Part shown: one piece after another, positions 3,001-63,980 of the stretch
Numbering within the stretch: position 1 is the first letter of the stretch
Layout of the letters: every line of letters starts with the position of its first letter
Source of the DNA: Chloropicon primus
Taxonomy: Eukaryota
Length of the DNA stretch: 64,000 nucleotides
Direction: 5' to 3'
Assembly: GCA_023205875.1 (NCBI GenBank)
Contig: CP060761.1
Location: forward strand, 744,001-808,000
Program-made: the position numbers and the translations under genes
The notes under the pieces: generated by a model
Told to the model about the DNA's origin: nothing
Seen by the model: the letters and a program-made list of their open reading frames with translations, nothing else
Databases searched by the model: none

Positions 3001-3375
3001 AGCTGTATAGGGATTTGGATCCACAGGCACAAAGTACATCAGCTTGCTATAATCGAATGCAGATATGCCAACAAAAATACCGATTTCCTGCGACAACCCC
3101 ACTCCATCTTGAACTTCTGTGTACAACTGCAAAATGAATCTCTGCTGTGGATCCATCACAAGAGACTCGCTGGATGAAAGCTTGAAGGCATGTGCATCAA
3201 AGTTCTCTACTTGTGGGATGAAGCTGCCAAAGTATGATCCAGCTGAACCAGCCATCCACCCAGATGATTCACAGTCACCTCGGGAATATGGTTCCACAGT
3301 ATCAATTCCACAAGTGGATGCAAGTGAATCCATACCAAGGGAACAATGGCTTCCAATGGATGTAATGGCAATCGT
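1..3375 (-). other. Module 14 (partial): KS-DH-ER...
   Basis: DTACSSS (about 2915), HGTGT, intact DH, ER nearly identical to M12 ER; cut by the window edge. Confidence 0.88.
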
Positions 3376-12300: not shown

Positions 12301-15300
12301 TGGAACAGACGTTATGGCATCACCTATACCGGCACCAGGCTTCATCGTCGTTGCAACAGGAAGGAGTGCACTGAAACTATTTAGAGCGACACACCTTGTG
12401 ACTCCCATCTCTGCACTTGGAAGAACCTCGTGTAGTTCCTGCACACTCTTGCCTTCTTGGAGGCCCAACTCACCACAAATGAAAGTGGTCAAAGCATTGA
12501 TGCTGGGATAGTCCAGGATCACAGTGCTTGGCAGTTGGACTCCAACAGAAGACGAAATAGTGTTGCGCAACTCCACAACACCAAGGGAATCAAGGCCAGC
12601 CTCCATCAATGGCACATCGTCCCCAAAGTCAAGTCCTGAAATATTTGTCAGTGCTCTTGAAATGGATTCTTGGATATTCTTTCTCTCAACAGCGGAGGAA
12701 TGGACGTTAGGGGCAGCAACTGGAACAACTGGAACAACAGCTTCAGGGGTCACCGACACTTGGCCAAGCACATAGGGTTTGCCCTGAACAAGGGACGAAA
12801 ACAAATTCCAGTAGTTGGGACTTGTGTAAATCAAGTTGCAGGTATACCTGGGAGCACCAACGACCGTTGAAAGAACATTCAGACCTGATGTCGGCAATAT
12901 GATTCCAAAATCTTTGGATAGACGAGCAAGTCTCTCTTTTGATACTTTCTCTCCCTGTGTAACCATACCAATAGACCCCCAAACGCCCCATTGGAAGTTC
13001 ATGCTTGGGAGGCCGCACAATTGAGTAGATTTGCACACAAAATCAAGAGCCGCATTGGATGCGGAATAGGATGTGTACTTTGGATTTCCAAGGGCAGATG
13101 CAAGTGAAGAGAAGTGCACAGTCGCACCTAGTGCAGCTGACCAAGATCCTGCTTGAATCCATTGAGCTCCTCTCAGCTTGGGTGACAAGGATCCACGCAT
13201 GTGAGATGGAGACTGGTTGCCCAAAATAGCATCAATCAGCACACCAGCAGCATGGACCACCATGCCCAGCGGATAGAGGTCATCGCATCTCTCCATCATC
13301 CACCAAGATGCTTCTTCCCGCACCGAGACATCACATCTTGCCATGGACACACTCATATCTCCAGCACGGAGTTCTTCTGGGCATGTCCTTGACTTTCCTG
13401 TGCGTCCAAGCAATCCTAGGGAAGAACCTAAGGACGATCTCACACACCAGCCACCAACCATTTGACCAATGCCGCTCAAGCCACCAGTCACGACATGGCG
13501 CCTTCCCTTCCCAAGATGGTGGGAACCATTCATGACAGCGTGTGTCTGCGTAGTATCTCTCTGCAAGGTCAATTGAGGCAGGTACAAACTGCCGTTGTCC
13601 ATGCTGCAGCCAAACACATCCACGGTTACATCCATGGCATAGCTCTTTGAGCTGAACTGCAAACCACGGGCGGAAGCGCTTGGGTGTAAAGGACTCGTGT
13701 CAACGCCACCACACTGGACGCTGGTGCACTCAAGAGCTATGCTACGCAACATGGCCCAAGACATGTATCCACTGGCTCCGTGATCCTTGTGAAGTCCCGC
13801 CGGACTTGCAGATGTGTCCAAGGAACCGGAACTGTGCATCCAAAGTGCGTCCGTGCCCTTCTCAACGAGATCCTGCATACCTGCAAGGATATGATGCGGG
13901 CAGATTGCACTCTCTTCCACATGAAGCTGTGTTGCAGGTTCTGAAGCCGTCAAAACATCCGAGGATACAACAGGTGTTTGAGCATACCAACAGATGTTGT
14001 ACAATTTGCAGGCATCCAAGATGTCGCGAGAAGACGAGACTCCACCGACCGTAGGGATGGAAATATCTTCTTTGCTGCTGATCACACGGAAGCTCAACTT
14101 GTCCACAAGGCATGGGGATGCGTCAATCTGAGAGGACTGAGTTACTCTTCCTACTTCAGTTGCACTACCCACCGCATGCAGACTCACTCCAAGGCTTGAA
14201 GTGCTCAGAATGCACGCCTCAACAGATGCTGGAATGCGAGCTTGCAATTCAAAGCCATCACTGGAGGATGAGGTCACACTGTCCATCAAGTGCAAAGATG
14301 ACTCCAAAGAACCTACACCTTGCAAAGCGTGTTCATCTTCAAAGCTCGGCTGGCATGGAACAAGCTTACCTTGTCCTGCACTGCCTGACTGACCCAGGTA
14401 AAGACGCGCACCGTCCAACACTTCATGGTGTTCTGTGGAGGTGCTGCTATCGACCGTGTCAAGATTGTGTGCGCTGCAAGTCATGTGTGGACTGTTGGTT
14501 CCCTCATCTTTTGACCTTACCAGAACATTGCCAGACGACAAGGCCACCTCACACTGAACCACGCCAGAAGAGACTGCTTCACCTGACAAGGCCAGCGTTG
14601 ATGTAAACAACACACGCACAAGCCAGGGCCTGCTGTCGCTGTTGGCATGCAACATTTCCATGGTCTTTGCAGCCATGGCCACAAAAGCAGAAGCGCAAAG
14701 CACTTGTCGGCCACAAACATCATACTCGTTCAAGGAAGCCAACAGAGGGTGGCCAATCAAGCAAGTCTCCACCGTCGCTGTATTGGTGGATCTTGACGAA
14801 AGAACGAACTGTTCTACCAATAAGGAGCGTTGGTGGGATACAATCCAGCAACGCACGCCCTTCCAAGTAGAGCTCATGCTCCTACGGTCCTTGTGACTCG
14901 CGTTCAACAAAGAACCGTTTGATGGAGTCAACAAGGCATGTGCATTTGTTCCTTGGAAGGCAAAGCCACTTGCTCCATACACACTCTGGACACCTGACTC
15001 CGAATCGGAACACTCAGCAGAGGAATAGCGTGGCAGTTGCACTGATTTGCCTCCCTTTTGTGCTTGAGCCTCCAAAACATTGACCACAAGAGGATTCACG
15101 TCCCGCAGATGCAGGAGTGGGCTCTGTGTGCCCATCACAAGGGGACCAAACAATTGTAGAATCCCAGACAGACCAGCAGCGGCCTCGGAGTGACCAACAC
15201 AAGACTTCACAGCAGAAAGGGCAAGTGGAGTTTGTGACTTGGTGCCTCCAAGCAACACTGCGCTCAGGGCACCCACTTCAACTGGGTCGCCCAAAGACGT

Positions 15301-16737
15301 GCCTGTTCCATGCATTTGCAAGCCAAATACATCTTCGGGAGATAAGTGTGCACTCTGCAGGGCTCTTTGCAGAACCATCTGCTGCGATGGACCGTTTGGA
15401 GCTGTCAAGGAACTGGATCTGCCATCTTGATTCACAGCACTGCCCACCATGGACACGCAATGTGCATCTGCCATGGCTTCAGAAGTTCCATCGACAATAA
15501 CACTCTGGCAAGCTTCTGCACGGACATAGCCATCTGCACTTTGATCCAATGTCTTACACCTACCATCAGCAGAAAGCATACTCGCAATGCTTACGACGAC
15601 AAGAGACGTGCTGGCAAGCATCAAATTCACACCACATGCCATACTGATTGGAGCTGACATGGTCATCGCTGATTGCCAGGCCATAAACAAGCCTACAAGA
15701 GATGATGAGCATGCTGTATCTATGCTCACACACGGACCTTGCAGTCCATACTTGTAAGACAAACGACCAGCTGCTACACTGAAAGCACTACCTGTTGCCA
15801 TCAATGGACTGAGTGGCATGTTGTGGTCCTTCATCAGACCATTGTATTCCATGTGCTCAATACCAACATAGACACCCATCTTCTCTCGACGACGCTGGAT
15901 GTTGCTTGAGTCCTGAGCATCATTCAGTACGCAACTTTGCATAGACTCCCAACTCACTTGCAGAAGCAATCTCTGCTGAGGATCACACAGCGAAGCTTCG
16001 GTCACTGACATTCCAAAACAAGCAGTGTCGAACGTGGAAACGTCCTTCAAAAGACCTGCAAATCGTGCTGTTAGCTGACCACTTGGCATCATTGCTTCAC
16101 TTCGCTCAAGATCCCAACGTCCAAATGGAACAGACGTTATGGCATCACCTATACCGGCACCAGGCTTCATCGTCGTTGCAACAGGAAGGAGTGCACTGAA
16201 ACTATTTAGAGCGACACACCTTGTGACTCCCATCTCTGCACTTGGAAGAACCTCGTGTAGTTCCTGCACACTCTTGCCTTCTTGGAGGCCCAACTCACCA
16301 CAAATGAAAGTGGTCAAAGCATTGATGCTGGGATAGTCCAGGATCGCAGTGCTTGGCAGTTGGACTCCAACAGAAGACGAAATAGTGTTGCGCAACTCCA
16401 CAACACCAAGGGAATCAAGACCAGCCTCCATCAACGGTGTGTTGATATCAATATCTTGCTGGAGTAGTCGCTGTACAGATTGAGATACTTGTTCAATGAT
16501 TGGTTGCACCTCGTGTTGGGATCTCACTACACGCTTTTCTTGGTGTGGTTTTGGAATCTCATCTACAATACTCGCTGGACATATCTGCTTGAAGAAAGAG
16601 GGGCACTTTGTACTTGAGCTTAAGACGTTGCTCCAGAATGCAGCTTGGTTTGCACATACAGTACCTTCTTCCTTCATGTGTAAACAAGAGGATAGAATTG
16701 AGAGACCAGAATCAGGGCTGATCGCTGCTAGTCCCAT
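1..16737 (-). CDS. PKS segment 6 (about 5579 aa, runs off window): M10 ACP, M11, M12, M13, M14 partial
   Basis: Spot translation in one frame: DHQVMGRIVCPGAAY (about 10930, 5950, 1910), GLNFRDVLNVLGAYPG (about 9420, 400), FVTGGLGALG (about 8520, 4520), GLDSL (about 7600, 3585), LVHSAAGGIG (about 85). Not every codon was checked by hand. Confidence 0.88.
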   Translation of the reverse strand, partial: MGLAAISPDSGLSILSSCLHMKEEGTVCANQAAFWSNVLSSSTKCPSFFKQICPASIVDEIPKPHQEKRVVRSQHEVQPIIEQVSQSVQRLLQQDIDINTPLMEAGLDSLGVVELRNTISSSVGVQLPSTAILDYPSINALTTFICGELGLQEGKSVQELHEVLPSAEMGVTRCVALNSFSALLPVATTMKPGAGIGDAITSVPFGRWDLERSEAMMPSGQLTARFAGLLKDVSTFDTACFGMSVTEASLCDPQQRLLLQVSWESMQSCVLNDAQDSSNIQRRREKMGVYVGIEHMEYNGLMKDHNMPLSPLMATGSAFSVAAGRLSYKYGLQGPCVSIDTACSSSLVGLFMAWQSAMTMSAPISMACGVNLMLASTSLVVVSIASMLSADGRCKTLDQSADGYVRAEACQSVIVDGTSEAMADAHCVSMVGSAVNQDGRSSSLTAPNGPSQQMVLQRALQSAHLSPEDVFGLQMHGTGTSLGDPVEVGALSAVLLGGTKSQTPLALSAVKSCVGHSEAAAGLSGILQLFGPLVMGTQSPLLHLRDVNPLVVNVLEAQAQKGGKSVQLPRYSSAECSDSESGVQSVYGASGFAFQGTNAHALLTPSNGSLLNASHKDRRSMSSTWKGVRCWIVSHQRSLLVEQFVLSSRSTNTATVETCLIGHPLLASLNEYDVCGRQVLCASAFVAMAAKTMEMLHANSDSRPWLVRVLFTSTLALSGEAVSSGVVQCEVALSSGNVLVRSKDEGTNSPHMTCSAHNLDTVDSSTSTEHHEVLDGARLYLGQSGSAGQGKLVPCQPSFEDEHALQGVGSLESSLHLMDSVTSSSSDGFELQARIPASVEACILSTSSLGVSLHAVGSATEVGRVTQSSQIDASPCLVDKLSFRVISSKEDISIPTVGGVSSSRDILDACKLYNICWYAQTPVVSSDVLTASEPATQLHVEESAICPHHILAGMQDLVEKGTDALWMHSSGSLDTSASPAGLHKDHGASGYMSWAMLRSIALECTSVQCGGVDTSPLHPSASARGLQFSSKSYAMDVTVDVFGCSMDNGSLYLPQLTLQRDTTQTHAVMNGSHHLGKGRRHVVTGGLSGIGQMVGGWCVRSSLGSSLGLLGRTGKSRTCPEELRAGDMSVSMARCDVSVREEASWWMMERCDDLYPLGMVVHAAGVLIDAILGNQSPSHMRGSLSPKLRGAQWIQAGSWSAALGATVHFSSLASALGNPKYTSYSASNAALDFVCKSTQLCGLPSMNFQWGVWGSIGMVTQGEKVSKERLARLSKDFGIILPTSGLNVLSTVVGAPRYTCNLIYTSPNYWNLFSSLVQGKPYVLGQVSVTPEAVVPVVPVAAPNVHSSAVERKNIQESISRALTNISGLDFGDDVPLMEAGLDSLGVVELRNTISSSVGVQLPSTVILDYPSINALTTFICGELGLQEGKSVQELHEVLPSAEMGVTRCVALNSFSALLPVATTMKPGAGIGDAITSVPFGRWDLERSEAMMPSGQLTARFAGLLKDVSTFDTACFGMSVTEASLCDPQQRLLLQVSWESMQSCVLNDAQDSSNIQRRREKMGVYVGIEHMEYNGLMKDHNMPLSPLMATGSAFSVAAGRLSYKYGLQGPCVSIDTACSSSLVGLFMAWQSAMTMSAPISMACGVNLMLASTSLVVVSIASMLSADGRCKTLDQSADGYVRAEACQSVIVDGTSEAMADAHCVSMMGSAVNQDGRSSSLTAPNGPSQQMVLQRALQSAHLSPEDVFGLQMHGTGTSLGDPVEVGALSAVLLGGTKSQTPLALSAVKSCVGHSEAAAGLSGILQLFGPLVMGTQSPLLHLRDVNPLVVNVLEAQAQKGGKSVQLPRYSSAECSDSESGVQSVYGASGFAFQGTNAHVLFARSYFNFESRLCGQRLSKVVRCWMCPKPHLLFSNGVVKGANIVLYHKWSVTSFRSISDHQVMGRIVCPGAAYMEMGGCVSEICNGTMGTQLKSLVLHASIPMPLTLAKPHETQNGLVEDCELSVLVDMEQGDIEIRSSNSLQGGSGLHLRACIGLKLDEHVHVSSSVGSAYDKSVSASPEIVRGQCSQSVDSTAMYASLYSVGLQYGPHFQVVSRLNVASNGKHVFGCLSGTSGTDESGMSVPPAVLDGCMHLGVGLRDESSSESSKDAKVPAGFSVYSIASDLSGQNIFGVAVRGKAASPDQSNTTLSSHYILDVDGSIASKLQDLQTKSIKPSMRTSPVVGKAMGNIYVMSWQSSMVKPQAVPATTLISKSHLFRVHLSNASICVEGGESHEHTYLNAVGAFLSIAQSVPLLKGSGKEMLLKTFGSVLESQMGMGCANVYKGCALSASLRGLLRSVRSEQRNVSWPCVDLGKGESDESLSTWWNENEGHEIVVRSQFVNVARLLNESYVPPSGLVQIVPRPRGALSNLVTDQVKLESPPLGILLVEVISVGLNFRDVLNVLGAYPGDPGPPGSDVSGIVVQVHLGGKSLQPQPLTVGSAVAGLASGCLGSHTYTHHQVVVPIPKAATFVEACTMITVFTTVDVAMCHAASLPSNAGQAVLVHSAAGGIGLAACQVVHALGGEMWATAGSSLKRHLLRSMGVQHVVSSRSTRYADLGQTAYNGQVEGMGLILNSLTSSGMVGASLSCLHLGGQLVEIGKRDIWSASGVHRERPDVVYSLLAVDFLPPARTHQALCRLAGGIAEGAVSGLRSTSHTLNGVQAALRWLAGAKHVGKVVVSQGLGTTSLLSMQESGCSFVTGGLGALGSLVGQWAAQHMTPDLRLAGRSGHYRLPVDMDKSKSALLSLQDPSSSAVFCAIRCDAGSQEECSSALSWPGLDMPLAQVMHAGGLLSDMLLGSQSMQSVRTVFAPKVDALHHLHARSWGHSVSSQLLFSSVASLLGSAGQSNYSAANAYLDTWSSAMESQGGCATSIQWGGWSGGGMALRDPSTTARLERVGMPALSGEDGLCLLASITKYSLFGLCKRFSTVTGVMFDWKKFLSRMTLKLNIFESWHMRSVTQSVTRQRPQTEVTARRIVDVGKVIEDVMLLVSPIIGDIGVDDPLFDAGLDSLTAIEFQNSLQQKYDISIPATIVFDFPSVGAISRYIHDAMFEEHNVPLGFDVDDEVNAPTNNLKIVHYGLKTGGPYRNEGAVCIDRVSRYFRNDMENLGWVPNETGSYFCALLRDVAHFDTGVFSINASEATVMDPQQRLILASTYPLIAHTSEETSVYVGLSNQDYIRIFSYSGRREVNPKLGTANSPSVAAGRISYMYGLTGPSLSVDTACSSSLVGTHLAMQSLFATECHAALSIGVNLTLAPDTGQIFKQAGMLALDGRCKTLDASADGYVRGEACGALCIKRFGKDEGVAFVELKGSAVNQDGRSSALTAPNGPAQQKVITSAVNNAALDLGNLEGFQLHGTGTPLGDPIEIGALDRVLSLRRKDISDSGRSENGTPALLMACKTSVGHTESAAGIASLIVTLSTIEQHVSHSILHLRSINVHLEKMMSANTNDAKASRPCYALPRQSTSRSSPLSQSGCPTGISSFAFQGTNAHVLMSLPIGCNNINCSLSFQSVAWESNRYWILPLTHPLMSAVEVRKNTGSDIIALSSKLQRPILEWICDHQVMGRIVCPGAAYMEMGGCVSEICNGTMGTQLKSLVLHASIPMPLTLAKPHETQNGLVEDCELSVLVDMEQGDIEIRSSNSLQGGSGLHLRACIGLKLDEHVHVSSSVGSAYDKSVSASPEIVRGQCSQSVDSTAMYASLYSVGLQYGPHFQVVSRLNVASNGKHVFGCLSGTSGTDESGMSVPPAVLDGCMHLGVGLRDDESSSESSKDAKVPAGFSVYSIASDLSGQNIFGVAVRGKAASPDQSNTTLSSHYILDVDGSIASKLQDLQTKSIKPSMRTSPVVGKAMGNIYVMSWQSSMVKPQAVPATTLISKSHLFRVHLSNASICVEGGESHEHTYLNAVGAFLSIAQSVPLLKGSGKEMLLKTFGSVLESQMGMGCANVYKGCALSASLRGLLRSVRSEQRNVSWPCVDLGKGESDESLSTWWNENEGHEIVVRSQFVNVARILQGAYVYPDQGFLSDFVMGTFGCSFVTGGLGALGSLVGQWAAQHMTPDLRLAGRSGHYRLPVDMDKSKSALLSLQDPSSSAVFCAIRCDAGSQEECSSALSWPGLDMPLAQVMHAGGLLSDMLLGSQSMQSVRTVFAPKVDALHHLHARSWGHSVSSQLLFSSVASLLGSAGQSNYSAANAYLDTWSSAMESQGGCATSIQWGGWSGGGMALRDPSTTARLERVGMPALSGEEGLSVLKSVLYENSSHRFGSPCVSNAVVSAVPFVWDKFLAGVGESKVFDNFRKATSVSIESSSSQVPVQRSGKVRFQKEAIISSVGALAASVVGREISAEEPLMEAGLDSLGTVEFNNALQQRFGIDLPATLIFDYPSISMIGNHLSDILAPEDAQGGDVLSSKPESAVPDARGLKDGITIAITSIGSHCSLGMDSLASTCGIDTVEPYSRGDCESSGWMAGSAGSYFGSFIPQVENFDAHAFKLSSSESLVMDPQQRFILQLYTEVQDGVGLSQEIGIFVGISAFDYSKLMYFVPVDPNPYTATANAASVAAGRASFFYGLTGPSLSVDTACSSSLVGTHLAMQSLFATECHAALSIGVNLTLAPDTGQVLKQAGMLALDGRCKTLDASADGYVRGEACGALCIKRFGKDEGVAFVELKGSAVNQDGRSSALTAPNGPAQQKVITSAVNNAALDLGNLEGFQLHGTGTPLGDPIEIGALDRVLSLRRKDISDSGRSENGTPALLMACKTSVGHTESAAGIASLIVTLSTIEQHVSHSILHLRSINVHLEKMMSANTNDAKASRPCYALPRQSTSRSSPLSQSGCPTGISSFAFQGTNAHVLMSLPIGCNNINCSLSFQSVAWESNRYWILPLTHPLMSAVEVRKNTGSDIIALSSKLQRPILEWICDHQVMGRIVCPGAAYMEMGGCVSEICNGTMGTQLKSLVLHASIPMPLTLAKPHETQNGLVEDCELSVLVDMEQGDIEIRSSNSLQGGSGLHLRACIGLKLDEHVHVSSSVGSAYDKSVSASPEIVRGQCSQSVDSTAMYASLYSVGLQYGPHFQVVSRLNVASNGKHVFGCLSGTSGTDESGMSVPPAVLDGCMHLGVGLRDDESSSESSKDAKVPAGFSVYSIASDLSGQNIFGVAVRGKAASPDQSNTTLSSHYILDVDGSIASKLQDLQTKSIKPSMRTSPVVGKAMGNIYVMSWQSSMVKPQAVPATTLISKSHLFRVHLSNASICVEGGESHEHTYLNAVGAFLSIAQSVPLLKGSGKEMLLKTFGSVLESQMGMGCANVYKGCALSASLRGLLRSVRSEQRNVSWPCVDLGKGESDESLSTWWNENEGHEIVVRSQFVNVARLLNESYVPPSGLVQIVPRPRGALSNLVTDQVKLESPPLGILLVEVISVGLNFRDVLNVLGAYPGDPGPPGSDVSGIVVQVHLGGKSLQPQPLTVGSAVAGLASGCLGSHTYTHHQVVVPIPKAATFVEACTMITVFTTVDVAMCHAASLPSNAGQAVLVHSAAGGIGLAACQVVHALGGEMWATAGSSL

Positions 16738-19700
16738 ACTTTCAAACCTTTTGACACAACCTTGTTAGAGGCCATACCAACTGCCTTCCAAATACCCCAC
16801 TGGATGGCCAAAGAAGCAATACCAGACATTTTCTGTCTGTTACTCATCATCTCCAAGCCTGAATTCGAGCAAGCATAGTTAATCTGACCAGGACTTCCAA
16901 CCAAAGAAGAAATGGATGAGAAGTGCACAGTCGCACCTAGTGCAGCTGACCAAGATCCTGCTTGAATCCATTGAGCTCCTCTCAGCTTGGGTGACAAGGA
17001 TCCACGCATGTGAGATGGAGACTGGTTGCCCAAAATAGCATCAATCAGCACACCAGCAGCATGGACCACCATGCCCAGCGGATAGAGGTCATCGCATCTC
17101 TCCATCATCCACCAAGATGCTTCTTCCCGCACCGAGACATCACATCTTGCCATGGACACACTCATATCTCCAGCACGGAGTTCTTCTGGGCATGTCCTTG
17201 ACTTTCCTGTGCGTCCAAGCAATCCTAGGGAAGAACCTAAGGACGATCTCACACACCAGCCACCAACCATTTGACCAATGCCGCTCAAGCCACCAGTCAC
17301 GACATGGCGCCTTCCCTTCCCAAGATGGTGGGAACCATTCATGACAGCGTGTGTCTGCGTAGTATCTCTCTGCAAGGTCAATTGAGGCAGGTACAAACTG
17401 CCGTTGTCCATGCTGCAGCCAAACACATCCACGGTTACATCCATGGCATAGCTCTTTGAGCTGAACTGCAAACCACGGGCGGAAGCGCTTGGGTGTAAAG
17501 GACTCGTGTCAACGCCACCACACTGGACGCTGGTGCACTCAAGAGCTATGCAGCGCAACATGGCCCAAGACATGTATCCACTGGCTCCGTGATCCTTGTG
17601 AAGTCCCGCGGGACTTGCAGATGTGTCCAAGGAACCGGAACTGTGCATCCAAAGTGCGTCCGTGCCCTTCTCAACGAGATCCTGCATACCTGCAAGGATA
17701 TGATGCGGGCAGATTGCACTCTCTTCCACATGAAGCTGTGTTGCAGGTTCTGAAGCCGTCAAAACATCCGAGGATACAACAGGTGTTTGAGCATACCAAC
17801 AGATGTTGTACAATTTGCAGGCATCCAAGATGTCGCGAGAAGACGAGACTCCACCGACCGTAGGGATGGAAATATCTTCTTTGCTGCTGATCACACGGAA
17901 GCTCAACTTGTCCACAAGGCATGGGGATGCGTCAATCTGAGAGGACTGAGTTACTCTTCCTACTTCAGTTGCACTACCCACCGCATGCAGACTCACTCCA
18001 AGGCTTGAAGTGCTCAGAATGCACGCCTCAACAGATGCTGGAATGCGAGCTTGCAATTCAAAGCCATCACTGGAGGATGAGGTCACACTGTCCATCAAGT
18101 GCAAAGATGACTCCAAAGAACCTACACCTTGCAAAGCGTGTTCATCTTCAAAGCTCGGCTGGCATGGAACAAGCTTACCTTGTCCTGCACTGCCTGACTG
18201 ACCCAGGTAAAGACGCGCACCGTCCAACACTTCATGGTGTTCTGTGGAGGTGCTGCTATCGACCGTGTCAAGATTGTGTGCGCTGCAAGTCATGTGTGGA
18301 CTGTTGGTTCCCTCTTCTTTTGACCTTACCAGAACATTGCCAGACGACAAGGCCACCTGACACTGAACCACGCCAGAAGAGACTGCTTCACCTGACAAGG
18401 CCAGCGTTGATGTAAACAACACATGCACAAGCCAGGGCCTGCTGTCGCTGTTGGCATGCAACATTTCCATGGTCTTTGCAGCCATGGCCACAAAAGCAGA
18501 AGCGCAAAGCACTTGTCGGCCACAAACATCATACTCGTTCAAGGAAGCCAACAGAGGGTGGCCAATCAAGCAAGTCTCCACCGTCGCTGTATTGGTGGAT
18601 CTTGACGAAAGAACGAACTGTTCTACCAATAAGGAGCGTTGGTGGGATACAATCCAGCAACGCACGCCCTTCCAAGTAGAGCTCATGCTCCTACGGTCCT
18701 TGTGACTCGCGTTCAACAAAGAACCGTTTGATGGAGTCAACAAGGTATGTGCATTTGTTCCTTGGAAGGCAAAGCCACTTGCTCCATACACACTCTGGAC
18801 ACCTGACTCCGAATCGGAACACTCAGCAGAGGAATAGCGTGGCAGTTGCACTGATTTGCCTCCCTTTTGTGCTTGAGCCTCCAAAACATTGACCACAAGA
18901 GGATTCACGTCCCGCAGATGCAGGAGTGGGCTCTGTGTGCCCATCACAAGGGGACCAAACAATTGTAGAATCCCAGACAGACCAGCAGCGGCCTCGGAGT
19001 GACCAACACAAGACTTCACAGCAGAAAGGGCAAGTGGAGTTTGTGACTTGGTGCCTCCAAGCAACACTGCGCTCAGGGCACCCACTTCAACTGGGTCGCC
19101 CAAAGACGTGCCTGTTCCATGCATTTGCAAGCCAAATACATCTTCGGGAGATAAGTGTGCACTCTGCAGGGCTCTTTGCAGAACCATCTGCTGCGATGGA
19201 CCGTTTGGAGCTGTCAAGGAACTGGATCTGCCATCTTGATTCACAGCACTGCCCACCATGGACACGCAATGTGCATCTGCCATGGCCTCAGAAGTTCCAT
19301 CGACAATAACACTCTGGCAAGCTTCTGCACGGACATAGCCATCTGCACTTTGATCCAATGTCTTACACCTACCATCAGCAGAAAGCATACTCGCAATGCT
19401 TACGACGACAAGAGACGTGCTGGCAAGCATCAAATTCACACCACATGCCATACTGATTGGAGCTGACATGGTCATCGCTGATTGCCAGGCCATAAACAAG
19501 CCTACAAGAGATGATGAGCATGCTGTATCTATGCTCACACACGGACCTTGCAGTCCATACTTGTAAGACAAACGACCGGCTGCTACACTGAAAGCACTAC
19601 CTGTTGCCATCAATGGACTGAGCGGCATGTTGTGGTCCTTCATCAGACCATTGTATTCCATGTGCTCAATACCAACATAGACACCCATCTTCTCTCGACG

Positions 19701-28700: not shown

Positions 28701-31700
28701 GGACGATCTCACACACCAGCCACCAACCATTTGACCAATGCCGCTCAAGCCACCAGTCACGACATGGCGCCTTCCCTTCCCAAGATGGTGGGAACTATTC
28801 ATGACAGCGTGTGTCTGCGTAGTATCTCTCTGCAAGGTCAATTGAGGCAGGTACAAACTGCCGTTGTCCATGCTGCAGCCAAACACATCCACGGTTACAT
28901 CCATGGCATAGCTCTTTGAGCTGAACTGCAAACCACGGGCGGAAGCGCTTGGGTGTAAAGGACTCGTGTCAACGCCACCACACTGGACGCTGGTGCACTC
29001 AAGAGCTATGCAGCGCAACATGGCCCAAGACATGTATCCACTGGCTCCGTGATCCTTGTGAAGTCCCGCGGGACTTGCAGATGTGTCCAAGGAACCGGAA
29101 CTGTGCATCCAAAGTGCGTCCGTGCCCTTCTCAACGAGATCCTGCATACCTGCAAGGATATGATGCGGGCAGATTGCACTCTCTTCCACATGAAGCTGTG
29201 TTGCAGGTTCTGAAGCCGTCAAAACATCCGAGGATACAACAGGTGTTTGAGCATACCAACAGATGTTGTACAATTTGCAGGCATCCAAGATGTCGCGAGA
29301 AGACGAGACTCCACCGACCGTAGGGATGGAAATATCTTCTTGCTGCTGATCACACGGAAGCTCAACTTGTCCACAAGGCATGGGGATGCGTCAATCTGAG
29401 AGGACTGAGTTACTCTTCCTACTTCAGTTGCACTACCCACCGCATGCAGACTCACTCCAAGGCTTGAAGTGCTCAGAATGCACGCCTCAACAGATGCTGG
29501 AATGCGAGCTTGCAATTCAAAGCCATCACTGGAGGATGAGGTCACACTGTCCATCAAGTGCAAAGATGACTCCAAAGAACCTACACCTTGCAAAGCGTGT
29601 TCATCTTCAAAGCTCGGCTGGCATGGAACAAGCTTACCTTGTCCTGCACTGCCTGACTGACCCAGGTAAAGACGCGCACCGTCCAACACTTCATGGTGTT
29701 CTGTGGAGGTGCTGCTATCGACCGTGTCAAGATTGTGTGCGCTGCAAGTCATGTGTGGACTGTTGGTTCCCTCTTCTTTTGACCTTACCAGAACATTGCC
29801 AGACGACAAGGCCACCTCACACTGAACCACGCCAGAAGAGACTGCTTCACCTGACAAGGCCAGCGTTGATGTAAACAACACACGCACAAGCCAGGGCCTG
29901 CTGTCGCTGTTGGCATGCAACATTTCCATGGTCTTTGCAGCCATGGCCACAAAAGCAGAAGCGCAAAGCACTTGTCGGCCACAAACATCATACTCGTTCA
30001 AGGAAGCCAACAGAGGGTGGCCAATCAAGCAAGTCTCCACCGTCGCTGTATTGGTGGATCTTGACGAAAGAACGAACTGTTCTACCAATAAGGAGCGTTG
30101 GTGGGATACAATCCAGCAACGCACGCCCTTCCAAGTAGAGCTCATGCTCCTACGGTCCTTGTGACTCGCGTTCAACAAAGAACCGTTTGATGGAGTCAAC
30201 AAGGCATGTGCATTTGTTCCTTGGAAGGCAAAGCCACTTGCTCCATACACACTCTGGACACCTGACTCCGAATCGGAACACTCAGCAGAGGAATAGCGTG
30301 GCAGTTGCACTGATTTGCCTCCCTTTTGTGCTTGAGCCTCCAAAACATTGACCACAAGAGGATTCACGTCCCGCAGATGCAGGAGTGGGCTCTGTGTGCC
30401 CATCACAAGGGGACCAAACAATTGTAGAATCCCAGACAGACCAGCAGCGGCCTCGGAGTGACCAACACAAGACTTCACAGCAGAAAGGGCAAGTGGAGTT
30501 TGTGACTTGGTGCCTCCAAGCAACACTGCGCTCAGGGCACCCACTTCAACTGGGTCGCCCAAAGACGTGCCTGTTCCATGCATTTGCAAGCCAAATACAT
30601 CTTCGGGAGATAAGTGTGCACTCTGCAGGGCTCTTTGCAGAACCATCTGCTGCGATGGACCGTTTGGAGCTGTCAAGGAACTGGATCTGCCATCTTGATT
30701 CACAGCACTGCCCACCATGGACACGCAATGTGCATCTGCCATGGCTTCAGAAGTTCCATCGACAATAACACTCTGGCAAGCTTCTGCGCGGACATAGCCA
30801 TCTGCACTTTGATCCAATGTCTTACACCTACCATCAGCAGAAAGCATACTCGCAATGCTTACGACGACAAGAGACGTGCTGGCAAGCATCAAATTCACAC
30901 CACATGCCATACTGATTGGAGCTGACATGGTCATCGCTGATTGCCAGGCCATAAACAAGCCTACAAGAGATGATGAGCATGCTGTATCTATGCTCACACA
31001 CGGACCTTGCAGTCCATACTTGTAAGACAAACGACCAGCTGCTACACTGAAAGCACTACCTGTTGCCATCAATGGACTGAGTGGCATGTTGTGGTCCTTC
31101 ATCAGACCATTGTATTCCATGTGCTCAATACCAACATAGACACCCATCTTCTCTCGACGACGCTGGATGTTGCTTGAGTCCTGAGCATCATTCAGTACGC
31201 AACTTTGCATAGACTCCCAACTCACTTGCAGAAGCAATCTCTGCTGAGGATCACACAGCGAAGCTTCGGTCACTGACATTCCAAAACAAGCAGTGTCGAA
31301 CGTGGAAACGTCCTTCAAAAGACCTGCAAATCGTGCTGTTAGCTGACCACTTGGCATCATTGCTTCACTTCGCTCAAGATCCCAACGTCCAAATGGAACA
31401 GACGTTATGGCATCACCTATACCGGCACCAGGCTTCATCGTCGTTGCAACAGGAAGGAGTGCACTGAAACTATTTAGAGCGACACACCTTGTGACTCCCA
31501 TCTCTGCACTTGGAAGAACCTCGTGTAGTTCCTGCACACTCTTGCCTTCTTGGAGGCCCAACTCACCACAAATGAAAGTGGTCAAAGCATTGATGCTGGG
31601 ATAGTCCAGGATCACAGTGCTTGGCAGTTGGACTCCAACAGAAGACGAAATAGTGTTGCGCAACTCCACAACACCAAGGGAATCAAGACCAGCCTCCATC

Positions 31701-34700
31701 AACGGTGTGTTGATATCAATATCTTGCTGGAGTAGTCGCTGTACAGATTGAGATACTTGTTCAATGATTGGTTGCACCTCGTGTTGGGATCTCACTACAC
31801 GCTTTTCTTGGTGTGGTTTTGGAATCCCATCTACAATGCTCGCTGGACATATCTGCTTGAAGAAAGAGGGGCACTTTGTACTTGAGCTTAAGACGTTGCT
31901 CCAGAATGCAGCTTGGTTTGCACATACAGTACCTTCTTCCTTCATGTGTAAACAAGAGGATAGAATTGAGAGACCAGAATCAGGGCTGATCGCTGCTAGT
32001 CCCATACTTTCAAACCTTTTTGACACAACCTTGTTAGAGGCCATACCAACTGCCTTCCAAATACCCCACTGGATGGCCAAAGAAGCAATACCAGACATTT
32101 TCTGTCTGTTACTCATCATCTCCAAGCCTGAATTCGAGCAAGCATAGTTAATCTGACCAGGACTTCCAACCAAAGAAGAAATGGATGAGAAGTGCACAGT
32201 CGCACCTAGTGCAGCTGACCAAGATCCTGCTTGAATCCATTGAGCTCCTCTCAGCTTGGGTGACAAGGATCCACGCATGTGAGATGGAGACTGGTTGCCC
32301 AAAATAGCATCAATCAGCACACCAGCAGCATGGACCACCATGCCCAGCGGATAGAGGTCATCGCATCTCTCCATCATCCACCAAGATGCTTCTTCCCGCA
32401 CCGAGACATCACATCTTGCCATGGACACACTCATATCTCCAGCACGGAGTTCTTCTGGGCATGTCCTTGACTTTCCTGTGCGTCCAAGCAATCCTAGGGA
32501 AGAACCTAAGGACGATCTCACACACCAGCCACCAACCATTTGACCAATGCCGCTCAAGCCACCAGTCACGACATGGCGCCTTCCCTTCCCAAGATGGTGG
32601 GAACTATTCATGACAGCGTGTGTCTGCGTAGTATCTCTCTGCAAGGTCAATTGAGGCAGGTACAAACTGCCGTTGTCCATGCTGCAGCCAAACACATCCA
32701 CGGTTACATCCATGGCATAGCTCTTTGAGCTGAACTGCAAACCACGGGCGGAAGCGCTTGGGTGTAAAGGACTCGTGTCAACGCCACCACACTGGACGCT
32801 GGTGCACTCAAGAGCTATGCTACGCAACATGGCCCAAGACATGTATCCACTGGCTCCGTGATCCTTGTGAAGTCCCGCGGGACTTGCAGATGTGTCCAAG
32901 GAACCGGAACTGTGCATCCAAAGTGCGTCCGTGCCCTTCTCAACGAGATCCTGCATACCTGCAAGGATATGATGCGGGCAGATTGCACTCTCTTCCACAT
33001 GAAGCTGTGTTGCAGGTTCTGAAGCCGTCAAAACATCCGAGGATACAACAGGTGTTTGAGCATACCAACAGATGTTGTACAATTTGCAGGCATCCAAGAT
33101 GTCGCGAGAAGACGAGACTCCACCGACCGTAGGGATGGAAATATCTTCTTTGCTGCTGATCACACGGAAGCTCAACTTGTCCACAAGGCATGGGGATGCG
33201 TCAATCTGAGAGGACTGAGTTACTCTTCCTACTTCAGTTGCACTACCCACCGCATGCAGACTCACTCCAAGGCTTGAAGTGCTCAGAATGCACGCCTCAA
33301 CAGATGCTGGAATGCGAGCTTGCAATTCAAAGCCATCACTGGAGGATGAGGTCACACTGTCCATCAAGTGCAAAGATGACTCCAAAGAACCTACACCTTG
33401 CAAAGCGTGTTCATCTTCAAAGCTCGGCTGGCATGGAACAAGCTTACCTTGTCCTGCACTGCCTGACTGACCCAGGTAAAGACGCGCACCGTCCAACACT
33501 TCATGGTGTTCTGTGGAGGTGCTGCTATCGACCGTGTCAAGATTGTGTGCGCTGCAAGTCATGTGTGGACTGTTGGTTCCCTCATCTTTTGACCTTACCA
33601 GAACATTGCCAGACGACAAGGCCACCTCACACTGAACCACGCCAGAAGAGACTGCTTCACCTGACAAGGCCAGCGTTGATGTAAACAACACACGCACAAG
33701 CCAGGGCCTGCTGTCGCTGTTGGCATGCAACATTTCCATGGTCTTTGCAGCCATGGCCACAAAAGCAGAAGCGCAAAGCACTTGTCGGCCACAAACATCA
33801 TACTCGTTCAAGGAAGCCAACAGAGGGTGGCCAATCAAGCAAGTCTCCACCGTCGCTGTATTGGTGGATCTTGACGAAAGAACGAACTGTTCTACCAACA
33901 AGGAGCGTTGGTGGGATACAATCCAGCAACGCACGCCCTTCCAAGTAGAGCTCATGCTCCTACGGTCCTTGTGACTCGCGTTCAACAAAGAACCGTTTGA
34001 TGGAGTCAACAAGGCATGTGCATTTGTTCCTTGGAAGGCAAAGCCACTTGCTCCATACACACTCTGGACACCTGACTCCGAATCGGAACACTCAGCAGAG
34101 GAATAGCGTGGCAGTTGCACTGATTTGCCTCCCTTTTGTGCTTGAGCCTCCAAAACATTGACCACAAGAGGATTCACGTCCCGCAGATGCAGGAGTGGGC
34201 TCTGTGTGCCCATCACAAGGGGACCAAACAATTGTAGAATCCCAGACAGACCAGCAGCGGCCTCGGAGTGACCAACACAAGACTTCACAGCAGAAAGGGC
34301 AAGTGGAGTTTGTGACTTGGTGCCTCCAAGCAACACTGCGCTCAGGGCACCCACTTCAACTGGGTCGCCCAAAGACGTGCCTGTTCCATGCATTTGCAAG
34401 CCAAATACATCTTCGGGAGATAAGTGTGCACTCTGCAGGGCTCTTTGCAGAACCATCTGCTGCGATGGACCGTTTGGAGCTGTCAAGGAACTGGATCTGC
34501 CATCTTGATTCACAGCACTGCCCATCATGGACACGCAATGTGCATCTGCCATGGCCTCAGAAGTTCCATCGACAATAACACTCTGGCAAGCTTCTGCACG
34601 AACATAGCCATCTGCACTTTGATCCAATGTCTTACACCTACCATCAGCAGAAAGCATACTCGCAATGCTTATGACGACAAGAGATGTGCTGGCAAGCATC

Positions 34701-37700
34701 AAATTCACACCACATGCCATACTGATTGGAGCTGACATGGTCATCGCTGATTGCCAGGCCATAAACAAGCCTACAAGAGATGATGAGCATGCTGTATCTA
34801 TGCTCACACACGGACCTTGCAGTCCATACTTGTAAGACAAACGACCAGCTGCTACACTGAAAGCATTACCTGTTGTCATCAATGGACTGAGTGGCATGTT
34901 GTGGTCCTTCATCAGACCATTGTATTCCATGTGCTCAATACCAACATAGACACCCATCTTCTCTCGACGACGCTGGATGTTGCTTGAGTCCTGAGCATCA
35001 TTCAGTACGCAACTTTGCATAGACTCCCAACTCACTTGCAGAAGCAATCTCTGCTGAGGATCACACAGCGAAGCTTCGGTCACTGACATTCCAAAACAAG
35101 CAGTGTCGAACGTGGAAACGTCCTTCAAAAGACCTGCAAATCGTGCTGTTAGCTGACCACTTGGCATCATTGCTTCACTTCGCTCAAGATCCCAACGTCC
35201 AAATGGAACAGACGTTATGGCATCACCTATACCGGCACCAGGCTTCATCGTCGTTGCAACAGGAAGGAGTGCACTGAAACTATTTAGAGCGACACACCTT
35301 GTGACTCCCATCTCTGCACTTGGAAGAACCTCGTGTAGTTCCTGCACACTCTTGCCTTCTTGGAGGCCCAACTCACCACAAATGAAAGTGGTCAAAGCAT
35401 TGATGCTGGGATAGTCCAGGATCACAGTGCTTGGCAGTTGGACTCCAACAGAAGACGAAATAGTGTTGCGCAACTCCACAACACCAAGGGAATCAAGACC
35501 AGCCTCCATCAACGGTGTGTTGATATCAATATCTTGCTGGAGTAGTCGCTGTACAGATTGAGATACTTGTTCAATGATTGGTTGCACCTCGTGTTGGGAT
35601 CTCACTACACGCTTTTCTTGGTGTGGTTTTGGAATCCCATCTACAATGCTCGCTGGACATATCTGCTTGAAGAAAGAGGGGCACTTTGTACTTGAGCTTA
35701 AGACGTTGCTCCAGAATGCAGCTTGGTTTGCACATACAGTACCTTCTTCCTTCATGTGTAAACAAGAGGATAGAATTGAGAGACCAGAATCAGGGCTGAT
35801 CGCTGCTAGTCCCATACTTTCAAACCTTTTGACACAACCTTGTTAGAGGCCATACCAACTGCCTTCCAAATACCCCACTGGATGGCCAAAGAAGCAATAC
35901 CAGACATTTTCTGTCTGTTACTCATCATCTCCAAGCCTGAATTCGAGCAAGCATAGTTAATCTGACCAGGACTTCCAACCAAAGAAGAAATGGATGAGAA
36001 GTGCACAGTCGCACCTAGTGCAGCTGACCAAGATCCTGCTTGAATCCATTGAGCTCCTCTCAGCTTGGGTGACAAGGATCCACGCATGTGAGATGGAGAC
36101 TGGTTGCCCAAAATAGCATCAATCAGCACACCAGCAGCATGGACCACCATGCCCAGCGGATAGAGGTCATCGCATCTCTCCATCATCCACCAAGATGCTT
36201 CTTCCCGCACCGAGACATCACATCTTGCCATGGACACACTCATATCTCCAGCACGGAGTTCTTCTGGGCATGTCCTTGACTTTCCTGTGCGTCCAAGCAA
36301 TCCTAGGGAAGAACCTAAGGACGATCTCACACACCAGCCACCAACCATTTGACCAATGCCGCTCAAGCCACCAGTCACGACATGGCGCCTTCCCTTCCCA
36401 AGATGGTGGGAACTATTCATGACAGCGTGTGTCTGCGTAGTATCTCTCTGCAAGGTCAATTGAGGCAGGTACAAACTGCCGTTGTCCATGCTGCAGCCAA
36501 ACACATCCACGGTTACATCCATGGCATAGCTCTTTGAGCTGAACTGCAAACCACGGGCGGAAGCGCTTGGGTGTAAAGGACTCGTGTCAACGCCACCACA
36601 CTGGACGCTGGTGCACTCAAGAGCTATGCTACGCAACATGGCCCAAGACATGTATCCACTGGCTCCGTGATCCTTGTGAAGTCCCGCGGGACTTGCAGAT
36701 GTGTCCAAGGAACCGGAACTGTGCATCCAAAGTGCGTCCGTGCCCTTCTCAACGAGATCCTGCATACCTGCAAGGATATGATGCGGGCAGATTGCACTCT
36801 CTTCCACATGAAGCTGTGTTGCAGGTTCTGAAGCCGTCAAAACATCCGAGGATACAACAGGTGTTTGAGCATACCAACAGATGTTGTACAATTTGCAGGC
36901 ATCCAAGATGTCGCGAGAAGACGAGACTCCACCGACCGTAGGGATGGAAATATCTTCTTTGCTGCTGATCACACGGAAGCTCAACTTGTCCACAAGGCAT
37001 GGGGATGCGTCAATCTGAGAGGACTGAGTTACTCTTCCTACTTCAGTTGCACTACCCACCGCATGCAGACTCACTCCAAGGCTTGAAGTGCTCAGAATGC
37101 ACGCCTCAACAGATGCTGGAATGCGAGCTTGCAATTCAAAGCCATCACTGGAGGATGAGGTCACACTGTCCATCAAGTGCAAAGATGACTCCAAAGAACC
37201 TACACCTTGCAAAGCGTGTTCATCTTCAAAGCTCGGCTGGCATGGAACAAGCTTACCTTGTCCTGCACTGCCTGACTGACCCAGGTAAAGACGCGCACCG
37301 TCCAACACTTCATGGTGTTCTGTGGAGGTGCTGCTATCGACCGTGTCGAGATTGTGTGCGCTGCAAGTCATGTGTGGACTGTTGGTTCCCTCATCTTTTG
37401 ACCTTACCAGAACATTGCCAGACGACAAGGCCACCTCACACTGAACCACGCCAGAAGAGACTGCTTCACCTGACAAGGCCAGCGTTGATGTAAACAACAC
37501 ATGCACAAGCCAGGGCCTGCTGTCGCTGTTGGCATGCAACATTTCCATGGTCTTTGCAGCCATGGCCACAAAAGCAGAAGCGCAAAGCACTTGTCGGCCA
37601 CAAACATCATACTCGTTCAAGGAAGCCAACAGAGGGTGGCCAATCAAGCAAGTCTCCACCGTCGCTGTATTGGTGGATCTTGACGAAAGAACGAACTGTT

Positions 37701-63650: not shown

Positions 63651-63980
63651 TTACGATTTTTTCTCCCTTTATTATTAGGGGGGAACGAGGATCGGGGTGG
63701 CGGGAGAGTGAGGGGACTCATCCACCTTTGGGGATAATGGAGGGAGGGGACGTCGACCAGGATGGAGGGGAGAGGGAGGAGGGGAGAGAGGAGAGGGGTC
63801 CTTGATCCTTGGATTGAATGAAACCTTACCGATTTTCTCCCTTTTTATTAGGGGGGAACGAGGATCGGGGTGGCGGGAGAGTGAGGGGACCCATCCACCT
63901 TTGGGGATAATGGAGGGAGGGGACGTCGACCAGGATGGAGGGGAGAGGGAGGAGGGATCCTTGATCCTTATCCTTGGATT
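63651..63980. repeat. Imperfect direct repeat, about 175-bp period, two copies, purine/G-rich on +
   Basis: ttattaggggggaacgaggatcggggtggcgggagagtgaggggac...gacgtcgaccaggatggaggggagaggg occurs at about 63672 and 63845. Confidence 0.9.

What the first reader, a model, noticed from the sequence alone, without database searches (positions are those of the whole stretch)
12600..36000. Two interchangeable KR-C-terminus/ACP-N-terminus cassettes in the order X X Y Y X X Y
Seen: otherwise near-identical modules differ completely over about 0.5 kb between the KR HFSS motif and the ACP PLMEAG motif. X (SISSLVGSPGQINYACSN) occurs in M5, M6, M9 and M10; Y (SLASALGNPKYTSYSASN) in M7, M8 and M11. The cassette includes the catalytic Tyr loop, and Y replaces the conserved GQ with KY. 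Inference: a binary code that may set hydroxyl stereochemistry or reduction state along the polyol, plus a higher-order four-module (about 15.27 kb) duplication.
Basis: partly seen in the sequence, partly recalled or inferred. Interest (0 to 1): 0.72.

Follow-up and report, generated by a model that had tools for sequence, protein, structure and literature searches.

The report
Two ketoreductase halves in algal megasynthase
A giant polyketide assembly line of a tiny marine green alga repeats one module seven times, each copy ending in one of two long-diverged ketoreductase halves that related sequences also keep; both halves are predicted to make the same alcohol geometry, so a stereochemical code is possible but untested, and the module count likely differs between assemblies.

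Summary
Seven 3.81-kb KS-DH0-KR-ACP modules on the minus strand differ by only 7-26 substitutions over 3,312 shared bases, yet end in one of two 0.48-0.50-kb cassettes (27% amino-acid identity) in the order XXYYXXY. Short-read contigs of other runs hold both cassettes joined to the shared sequence. The gene is an intronless trans-AT PKS 98-99% identical to a protein its source names Chloropicon primus. New here: environmental relatives keep both cassettes at 72-73% identity, and one lineage carries both on a near-identical background, so the dimorphism is old and under constraint. Y's Lys-Tyr loop is unusual (Tyr at -3 in 0 of 486 homologous KRs). The code reading is weaker. X and Y share the B-type Asp, lack the A-type Trp, keep the catalytic tetrad and feed the same KS. 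The four-module duplication is not supported by SNPs. A second annotated protein reads XXYX, one Y fewer, and contig depth in a conspecific sample suggests about 9-14 modules. The five frameshifts are likely assembly errors. Verdict: a new variant of known PKS recombination mosaics, with a clean, testable natural KR-half swap.

The parts
1..63228 (-). Giant intronless trans-AT type I PKS: A-ACP loading, KS-DH-KR-ACP, KS-ECH repeats-HMGS-ACP-HMGS-ACP, KS-DH-ER-KR-ACP, eight KS-DH0-KR-ACP modules (M4-M11), then reducing modules M12-M14; runs off the window at base 1
   Evidence: ORFs; translation; motifs; Pfam scan with no AT family (PF00698) in any of 6 segments
35501..39309 (-). Module M5 (ACP end, KS, DH0, KR, cassette X)
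31691..35500 (-). Module M6 (cassette X)
27867..31690 (-). Module M7 (cassette Y); the module that has no counterpart in P0184
24042..27866 (-). Module M8 (cassette Y; KS patch T272V/V277A)
20232..24041 (-). Module M9 (cassette X; KS patch T272V/V277A)
16423..20231 (-). Module M10 (cassette X)
12598..16422 (-). Module M11 (cassette Y)
35513..35995 (-). Cassette X, M5 (KR C-half, linker, ACP N-part); one-base deletion near 35830
31703..32186 (-). Cassette X, M6
27879..28377 (-). Cassette Y, M7
24054..24551 (-). Cassette Y, M8; one-base deletion near 24485
20244..20727 (-). Cassette X, M9
16435..16917 (-). Cassette X, M10; one-base deletion near 16750, absent from contigs of runs X1 and X7
   Evidence: (table 4)
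12610..13108 (-). Cassette Y, M11
39324..39888 (-). Third cassette Z in M4: begins earlier, at HAAGVL|LSA, lacks the B-type Asp; predicted A-type KR; single copy
   Evidence: own contig in 3 of 3 same-sample runs
39889..40971 (-). M4 stretch (DH0 end, KR N-half) 99% identical to M5-M11

Best explanation
This is a tandem array of near-identical modules in a green-algal trans-AT polyketide synthase, predicted to build a 1,3-polyol, in which recombination likely keeps the shared 3.3 kb uniform while two ancient ketoreductase C-halves (X and Y) persist side by side; both are likely active and predicted to give the same D (B-type) hydroxyl, and the number and order of modules likely vary between strains or assemblies. 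Mechanism in steps. Shown: each module has KS, a DH lacking its catalytic His and Asp, a KR with the full tetrad and an ACP. Inferred from established PKS chemistry: each adds malonyl (AT in trans), reduces the beta-ketone and leaves the hydroxyl. Shown: the shared part is a patchwork of SNPs across copies, with breakpoints at conserved motifs (HAAGVL, FSS, MEAGLDS). Inferred: gene conversion and unequal crossing-over homogenise the flanks but cannot blend the 27%-identical cassettes, only swap or copy them whole. Shown: X and Y are conserved in relatives. Inferred: selection keeps both, most likely because Y's reshaped loop and longer lid tune substrate handling or ACP docking, not because they flip the alcohol.
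For: DH0: His replaced by Tyr and Asp by Glu in 7 of 7 array modules, intact in M1, M3, M12-M14. KR: Lys, Ser, Tyr, Asn and the Asp of HAAGVLIDA in X and Y, no Trp at -8; the second Asp is the marker kept by B-type trans-AT KRs, with P144/N148 for B and W141 for A (PMC5331325, passages). Same KS gatekeeper loop (EHME) after X, Y and Z. Mosaic: 103 of 231 pairs of the 22 informative sites fail the four-gamete test; 14 of 22 conflict with the X/Y split. Conservation: KR part of X 78 of 95 and of Y 79 of 95 residues identical to relatives, like the shared KR N-half (78-86%) and ACP-KS (77-84%), against 56-57% for the upstream DH0/structural stretch. One relative carries X (P0174) and a Y-type ACP start (P0166, 15 of 24 matches to Y, 4 to X) on backgrounds 197 of 200 identical. 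P0184 reads X X Y X in one frame and lines up with M5, M6, M8, M9, M10. Contig depth: modules 11.4-13.9x single copy in run X2 and 8.8-11.0x in X3, against 7-8 in the window; Y 4.45x Z against 3. The Y KR core folds as a PKS KR (pLDDT 66-86 in most 10-residue blocks of the core, lower in the lid; top matches PKS KRs).
Against: The fingerprints are less reliable outside actinobacterial modules (PMC11228615, text parts 1-2), and no algal KR rule was found. Tyr at -3 is seen in 0 of 486 homologous KRs and is conserved in a relative (NPRYTAY), which asks for a reason that this reading only guesses at. Loop changes can override the LDD motif (PMC7327777). Long coexistence of X and Y rests on one relative and 24 residues. 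Depth is one figure per contig, the tool warns it is no copy number, GC differs (0.51 against 0.43-0.47), X1 is too uneven to use (12.2 and 40.1 on two single-copy stretches), and the runs differ from the window at some sites (consensus matches 1 of 7 modules at 37437 and 37708), so they may be another strain. P0184 is a gene model whose DNA was not seen; a skipped module cannot be excluded. M7-M11 is the closest of all 21 pairs, which fits a period of four for that pair.
Confidence: 0.5

Rival explanations
1. Stereo code: Y's Lys/Arg-Tyr loop and longer lid override the shared Asp and give the L alcohol, so the cassette order writes the syn/anti pattern of the polyol, and gain or loss of modules rewrites it between strains.
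For: Cassette holds the loop beside the catalytic Tyr and the lid; Tyr at -3 in 0 of 486 homologues yet conserved in a relative; X and Y kept across lineages at 72-73% identity; a triple change in this loop reversed EryKR1's product with LDD left in place (PMC7327777); natural hybrid KRs made by recombination are known (PMC1592344); the shared KS also follows the Asp-less Z KR, so it may accept both alcohols.
Against: Y has Leu, not Trp, at -8 and Pro at -5, both B-like; it has a B-like RLAR lid motif (motif from PMC11228615). The -3 position is tied in the papers read to alpha-carbon control, and these modules have no methyltransferase. The gene already has an Asp-less cassette (Z) for an L alcohol. 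The KS patch does not track the upstream cassette (2 of 3 after Y and 0 of 5 otherwise in the window, but 1 of 1 after Y and 1 of 3 after X in P0184).
Confidence: 0.27
2. Reduction code: Y is a slow or blocked reductase that leaves a ketone, which could close a hemiketal ring, while X gives a hydroxyl.
For: A bulky Tyr replaces the Gln that 459 of 486 homologues keep; the lid has a 5-residue insertion.
Against: Full tetrad and shared NADPH motif; Y is as conserved as X (79 and 78 of 95), unlike the decayed DH0 stretch; the same KS follows both.
Confidence: 0.1
3. Neutral relics: X and Y are leftovers of two ancestral modules, equal in function, that conversion has not yet replaced.
For: Same fingerprints and same KS; 27% identity blocks partial conversion; module count seems to drift.
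Against: Both survive in lineages whose KS differ by about 20% while flanks are homogenised to 98.5-99.5% within a lineage; whole-module gain and loss should fix one type over such time (inference).
Confidence: 0.11
4. Assembly artefact: the cassettes come from different loci or alleles and were stitched into one array.
For: Five one-base indels, all inside the array; depth excess; the species is reported diploid (PMC6731263).
Against: Both cassettes join the same shared sequence in contigs of independent runs, their depths in X1 (31.7 + 34) sum to the shared depth (64), and P0184 holds X and Y in one reading frame. The artefact risk concerns count and order, not the cassettes.
Confidence: 0.02

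Closest known systems
Chlorophyte giant trans-AT type I PKS (Chlamydomonas reinhardtii PKS1 type; PMC7073580, passages)
   Same: One megasynthase, N-terminal adenylation domain, no AT, many modules, product unknown.
   Different: Here at least 14 modules, an in-line ECH/HMGS beta-branching block and a run of eight DH-dead, hydroxyl-leaving modules, seven of them 99.2-99.8% identical; the review describes 10-11 highly reducing modules.
Recombinational KR and DH-KR replacement in Streptomyces avermitilis PKSs, including the hybrid PteA1-2 KR (PMC1592344, passages)
   Same: Duplicated modules with swapped KR parts, breakpoints inside domains and linkers, KS homogenised.
   Different: A eukaryote; two cassettes recur several times in one array; the swap leaves the LDD loop in place; both types are kept across lineages.
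B-type (D-hydroxyl) PKS ketoreductases (PMC5331325, PMC11228615)
   Same: Asp of the LDD loop, no Trp, Pro at -5, Lys-Ser-Tyr-Asn tetrad, WG..GM, KR fold.
   Different: Y has Lys/Arg-Tyr for Gly-Gln, Ser for Asn at -1 and a longer lid.
PKZILLA megasynthases of Prymnesium parvum (search listing only)
   Same: Giant algal modular PKS.
   Different: Haptophyte, known polyether product; no comparison of sequences was made here.

Membership tests
trans-AT modular type I PKS | Repeated KS-(processing)-ACP modules in one reading unit | tested here: met
trans-AT modular type I PKS | No AT domain in the modules | tested here: met
   No PF00698 hit in 6 of 6 segments scanned; short stretches between segments repeat scanned modules
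trans-AT modular type I PKS | Separate AT gene in the genome | not testable with these tools
   No whole genome held
B-type KR (X) | Asp in the LDD loop, no Trp at -8, Pro -5 and Asn -1 | tested here: met
   HAAGVLIDA; Val, Pro, Asn; rule from PMC5331325
B-type KR (Y) | Asp in the LDD loop, no Trp at -8, Pro -5 and Asn -1 | tested here: inconclusive
   Asp, Leu and Pro fit; Ser at -1 and Lys-Tyr at -4/-3 do not
B-type KR (X and Y) | Makes a D-beta-hydroxy product | not testable with these tools
   Needs an enzyme assay
A-type KR (Y) | Trp at -8 and no Asp in the LDD loop | tested here: not met
   Leu at -8, Asp present
A-type KR (Z, M4) | No Asp in the LDD loop; Trp at -8 | tested here: inconclusive
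   Asp absent (LLSA), Phe in place of Trp
C-type (non-reducing) KR (Y) | Loss of catalytic Tyr/Asn or of the NADPH motif | tested here: not met
   Lys, Ser, Tyr, Asn and VTGGLSGIG all present
Inactive dehydratase (DH0) polyol module | Loss of the DH His and Asp | tested here: met
   7 of 7 array modules; also His-less in a relative, P0174
Higher-order four-module duplication | Modules four apart are each other's closest copies | tested here: not met
   18, 16 and 7 substitutions against a mean of 14.6 over 21 pairs; only M7-M11 fits

The most novel reading that the evidence does not exclude
A eukaryotic assembly line keeps two swappable ketoreductase half-domains as a binary stereo switch: Y's Lys/Arg-Tyr loop flips the alcohol despite a B-type Asp, and recombination between identical flanks rewrites the length and syn/anti pattern of the polyol between strains, giving programmed chemical variation and a new KR fingerprint.
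Probability: 0.25. Interest if true: 0.8.

Novelty: new variant of a known kind. Interest (0 to 1): 0.5.

Why it matters
The array is a natural controlled experiment: modules identical except for 160 residues of KR C-half and ACP start. One assay of two small proteins tells whether that half can set hydroxyl geometry against the LDD rule, which is the main tool for reading stereochemistry from PKS genes and is untested for algal enzymes in the papers read. If X and Y differ, the FSS and MEAGLDS junctions are evolution-tested swap points for PKS engineering, and an oceanic picoalga varies a polyol by recombination. If they do not, it is a warning that repeat order in such arrays should not be read from one assembly.

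Tried and rejected
No whole genome was held. A scan of JGI metagenome contigs with the Y KR-ACP protein gave 106 pattern matches and no confirmed relative; a 20-base pattern gave 1 locus, L001, with no blastn similarity to the window, taken as chance. The representative-protein search gave only distant KRs at 26-36% identity; these served as the background set. A first motif count by regular expression failed and was redone on alignment columns; 10 of 496 domains without the catalytic Tyr were left out of the counts. The idea that a KS patch (T272V/V277A) co-migrates with an upstream Y was tested and dropped: it fits 2 of 3 in the window but P0184 has it after an X. Four-module duplication rejected. 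Run X1 rejected for absolute copy number. The AlphaFold model of Y (mean pLDDT 56.9, 25-row alignment) is too weak for active-site geometry; X was not folded. Exact look-ups of 4 window ORFs found none in the protein collection. Four look-ups of earlier findings gave nothing relevant.
Full report
What the window is. The minus strand carries one intronless PKS from 63228 to beyond base 1, split into six ORFs by five one-base indels. Pfam finds an adenylation domain, KS, DH, ER, KR, ACP, ECH and HMG-CoA synthase domains and no acyltransferase in 6 of 6 segments scanned. The best hit for module M5 is P0184, named by its source 'polyketide synthase [Chloropicon primus]', 98% identical; other named algal hits are 29-43% identical. 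The window is therefore most likely from that green alga or a very close relative. Passages of the species' genome paper report a mostly diploid genome, 12 PKS genes and low GC at the PKS loci, and do not discuss modules (PMC6731263; its supplementary PKS table was not read and may bear on the annotation). Six paper searches listed nothing on this array or its product; subscription journals are largely outside that library.

The observation. Confirmed at the stated places. Modules M5-M11 are 3,809-3,825 bases. Over the 3,312 shared columns pairs differ by 7-26 substitutions; over the last 522 columns X and Y differ at 304-306, copies of one type at 0-3. X and Y are homologous KR C-halves plus linker and ACP start, 42 of 158 residues identical. 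M4 shares 1,084 bases with the array and then switches, at HAAGVL, to a third cassette Z that lacks the B-type Asp. In short-read contigs the Y-to-ACP joint stands in 3 of 4 runs laid and the X-to-KR joint in 4 of 4; in X1 the cassette depths (31.7, 34) sum to the shared depth (64). The indel near 16750 is absent from contigs of X1 and X7. Four of the five indels shorten a run of 3-5 equal bases and all five lie in the array, so they are likely assembly errors; only one type was checked against reads.

Four-module duplication. Of the 35 orders of four X and three Y, 3 have period four, so the 15.27-kb match is not rare. Pairs four apart differ by 18, 16 and 7 substitutions against a mean of 14.6; M7-M11 is the closest of 21 pairs, the other two are above the mean. 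Of 231 pairs among 22 informative sites 103 fail the four-gamete test, and 14 of 22 sites conflict with the X/Y split. This is the pattern of patchwork exchange among copies, or of mixed haplotypes in the consensus, not of one block duplication.

Order and count. P0184 holds four cassettes in one frame, X X Y X, a string absent from XXYYXXY. Its variable residues align it with M5, M6, M8, M9 and M10 (His603 in the first module; the V272/A277 patch in the third and fourth; Cys246 in the fourth), so it equals the window's order less M7. It has private residues (Gln625 in 4 of 5 modules against 1 of 7 here), so it comes from another assembly, strain or haplotype; its DNA was not seen and a gene-model skip is possible. 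In two runs of one sample, single-copy contigs have depth 121-131 (X2) and 141-156 (X3), the listed module contigs 1437-1748 and 1304-1632, that is 11.4-13.9 and 8.8-11.0 copies against 7-8 here; the 574-base contig taken as Y is 4.45 times Z against 3 here. Contig depth is a rough proxy, the tool says so, table 8 was cut, GC differs, and these runs differ from the window at some sites. The reading is that count varies between strains or that an assembly is collapsed; the tools cannot tell which.

What the modules do. The DH of 7 of 7 array modules has Tyr for the catalytic His and Glu for the Asp, while M1, M3 and M12-M14 keep the His motif (motif positions from recalled PKS knowledge). By established PKS chemistry M4-M11 would leave a run of 1,3-hydroxyls after an acyl starter, an alkene, a beta-branch and a reduced unit. 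X and Y both have the NADPH motif, Lys, Ser, Tyr and Asn, the Asp of HAAGVLIDA, no Trp at -8 and Pro at -5. Passages of PMC5331325 give the second Asp as the marker kept by B-type trans-AT KRs, P144 and N148 for B and W141 for A. Both are thus predicted B-type; Z is predicted A-type. PMC11228615 (parts 1-2 of 4 read) warns that these rules weaken outside actinobacteria and places type-linked motifs in the lid. The KS after X, Y and Z has the same EHME loop at the position where cis-AT KSs carry gatekeeper motifs (PMC11321453, part 1 of 3; PMC12636015, passages), so the KS gives no sign of different substrates, though it also follows the Asp-less Z.

Y is unusual and conserved. Among 486 homologous KR domains with the catalytic Tyr, from 158 proteins, 459 have Gln and none Tyr at -3; 440 have Gly and 2 Lys at -4. 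Environmental relatives keep both loops: NPRYTAYSASN in P0170, P0171 and P0172 and SPGQINYACSN in P0174, P0176 and P0177, behind LLDA where that part is held. Whole cassettes are 73% (X) and 72% (Y) identical to these relatives, the KR parts 82-83%, level with the ACP-KS and far above the 56-57% of the upstream DH0/structural stretch. X-type ends occur on three distinct backgrounds and Y-type ends on two. One background has both: P0174 (X) and P0166 (Y-type, 15 of 24 against 4 of 24) are 197 of 200 identical downstream, but only 81% identical to the window. So flanks are homogenised within lineages while the two cassettes outlive the lineages. That argues for selection on both and against a dead Y. 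A model of the Y KR has a KR fold with moderate confidence in the core and low confidence overall.

Mechanism and odds. Most likely (0.5) both KRs give the D alcohol and differ in tuning, while recombination at conserved motifs copies, drops and swaps modules. The stereo code (0.27) stays live because a triple change in this same loop reversed EryKR1's product with LDD intact (PMC7327777, passage), but Y lacks the Trp used there, and the -3 changes described in that passage act on the alpha carbon. A reduction code (0.1) and neutral relics (0.11) are weaker; artefact (0.02) is excluded for the cassettes.

Comparison with what is known. Algal giant trans-AT PKSs with an N-terminal A domain are known (PMC7073580, passages), as are recombinational KR swaps and a hybrid KR in Streptomyces (PMC1592344, passages). 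What was not found in the searches named above is a eukaryotic array with two recurring KR half-cassettes kept across lineages, or a KR with a conserved basic-Tyr pair in place of Gly-Gln. This is a new variant of a known kind, with one cheap decisive assay. Interest 0.5; 0.8 if the cassettes prove to flip the alcohol.

Noticed in passing
window 39324-39888 (-): A third KR cassette (Z) in M4 starts at the LDD loop and lacks the Asp, so the first hydroxyl of the run is predicted to have the opposite geometry.
   Followed up: partly
window 47654-54830 (-): In-line beta-branching block: a 1,440-base ECH unit duplicated at 100% identity and an HMG-CoA synthase-ACP unit duplicated at 99.9%, both fused into the PKS chain.
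   Followed up: no
window 1-10932 (-): M12-M14 are also a mosaic: shared DH from the catalytic His onward, ER present in M12 and M14 but absent in M13, shared KR N-half; KS of M2 and M3 share 815 bases at 99.5% (46294-47108, 55924-56738). P0297 shows the gene continues with more such modules.
   Followed up: partly
KS of M8 and M9, about window 27037-27060 and 23212-23235 (-): A 24-base patch with clustered substitutions gives T272V and V277A; Ala277 also occurs in relatives (P0002, P0168, P0182) beside Val (P0174, P0183), so this small dimorphism is old too.
   Followed up: partly
P0174: A module 73-81% identical to this algal PKS in its KR and KS parts is labelled by its source as a Rhodobacteraceae MAG protein; likely an algal contig binned with a bacterium (inference).
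   Followed up: no
window 41096-45758: Three runs of one sample differ from each other at single-copy sites, as expected for heterozygous positions.
   Followed up: no
window 63659-63956: A 125-base direct repeat (98%) and short microsatellites upstream of the start codon.
   Followed up: no
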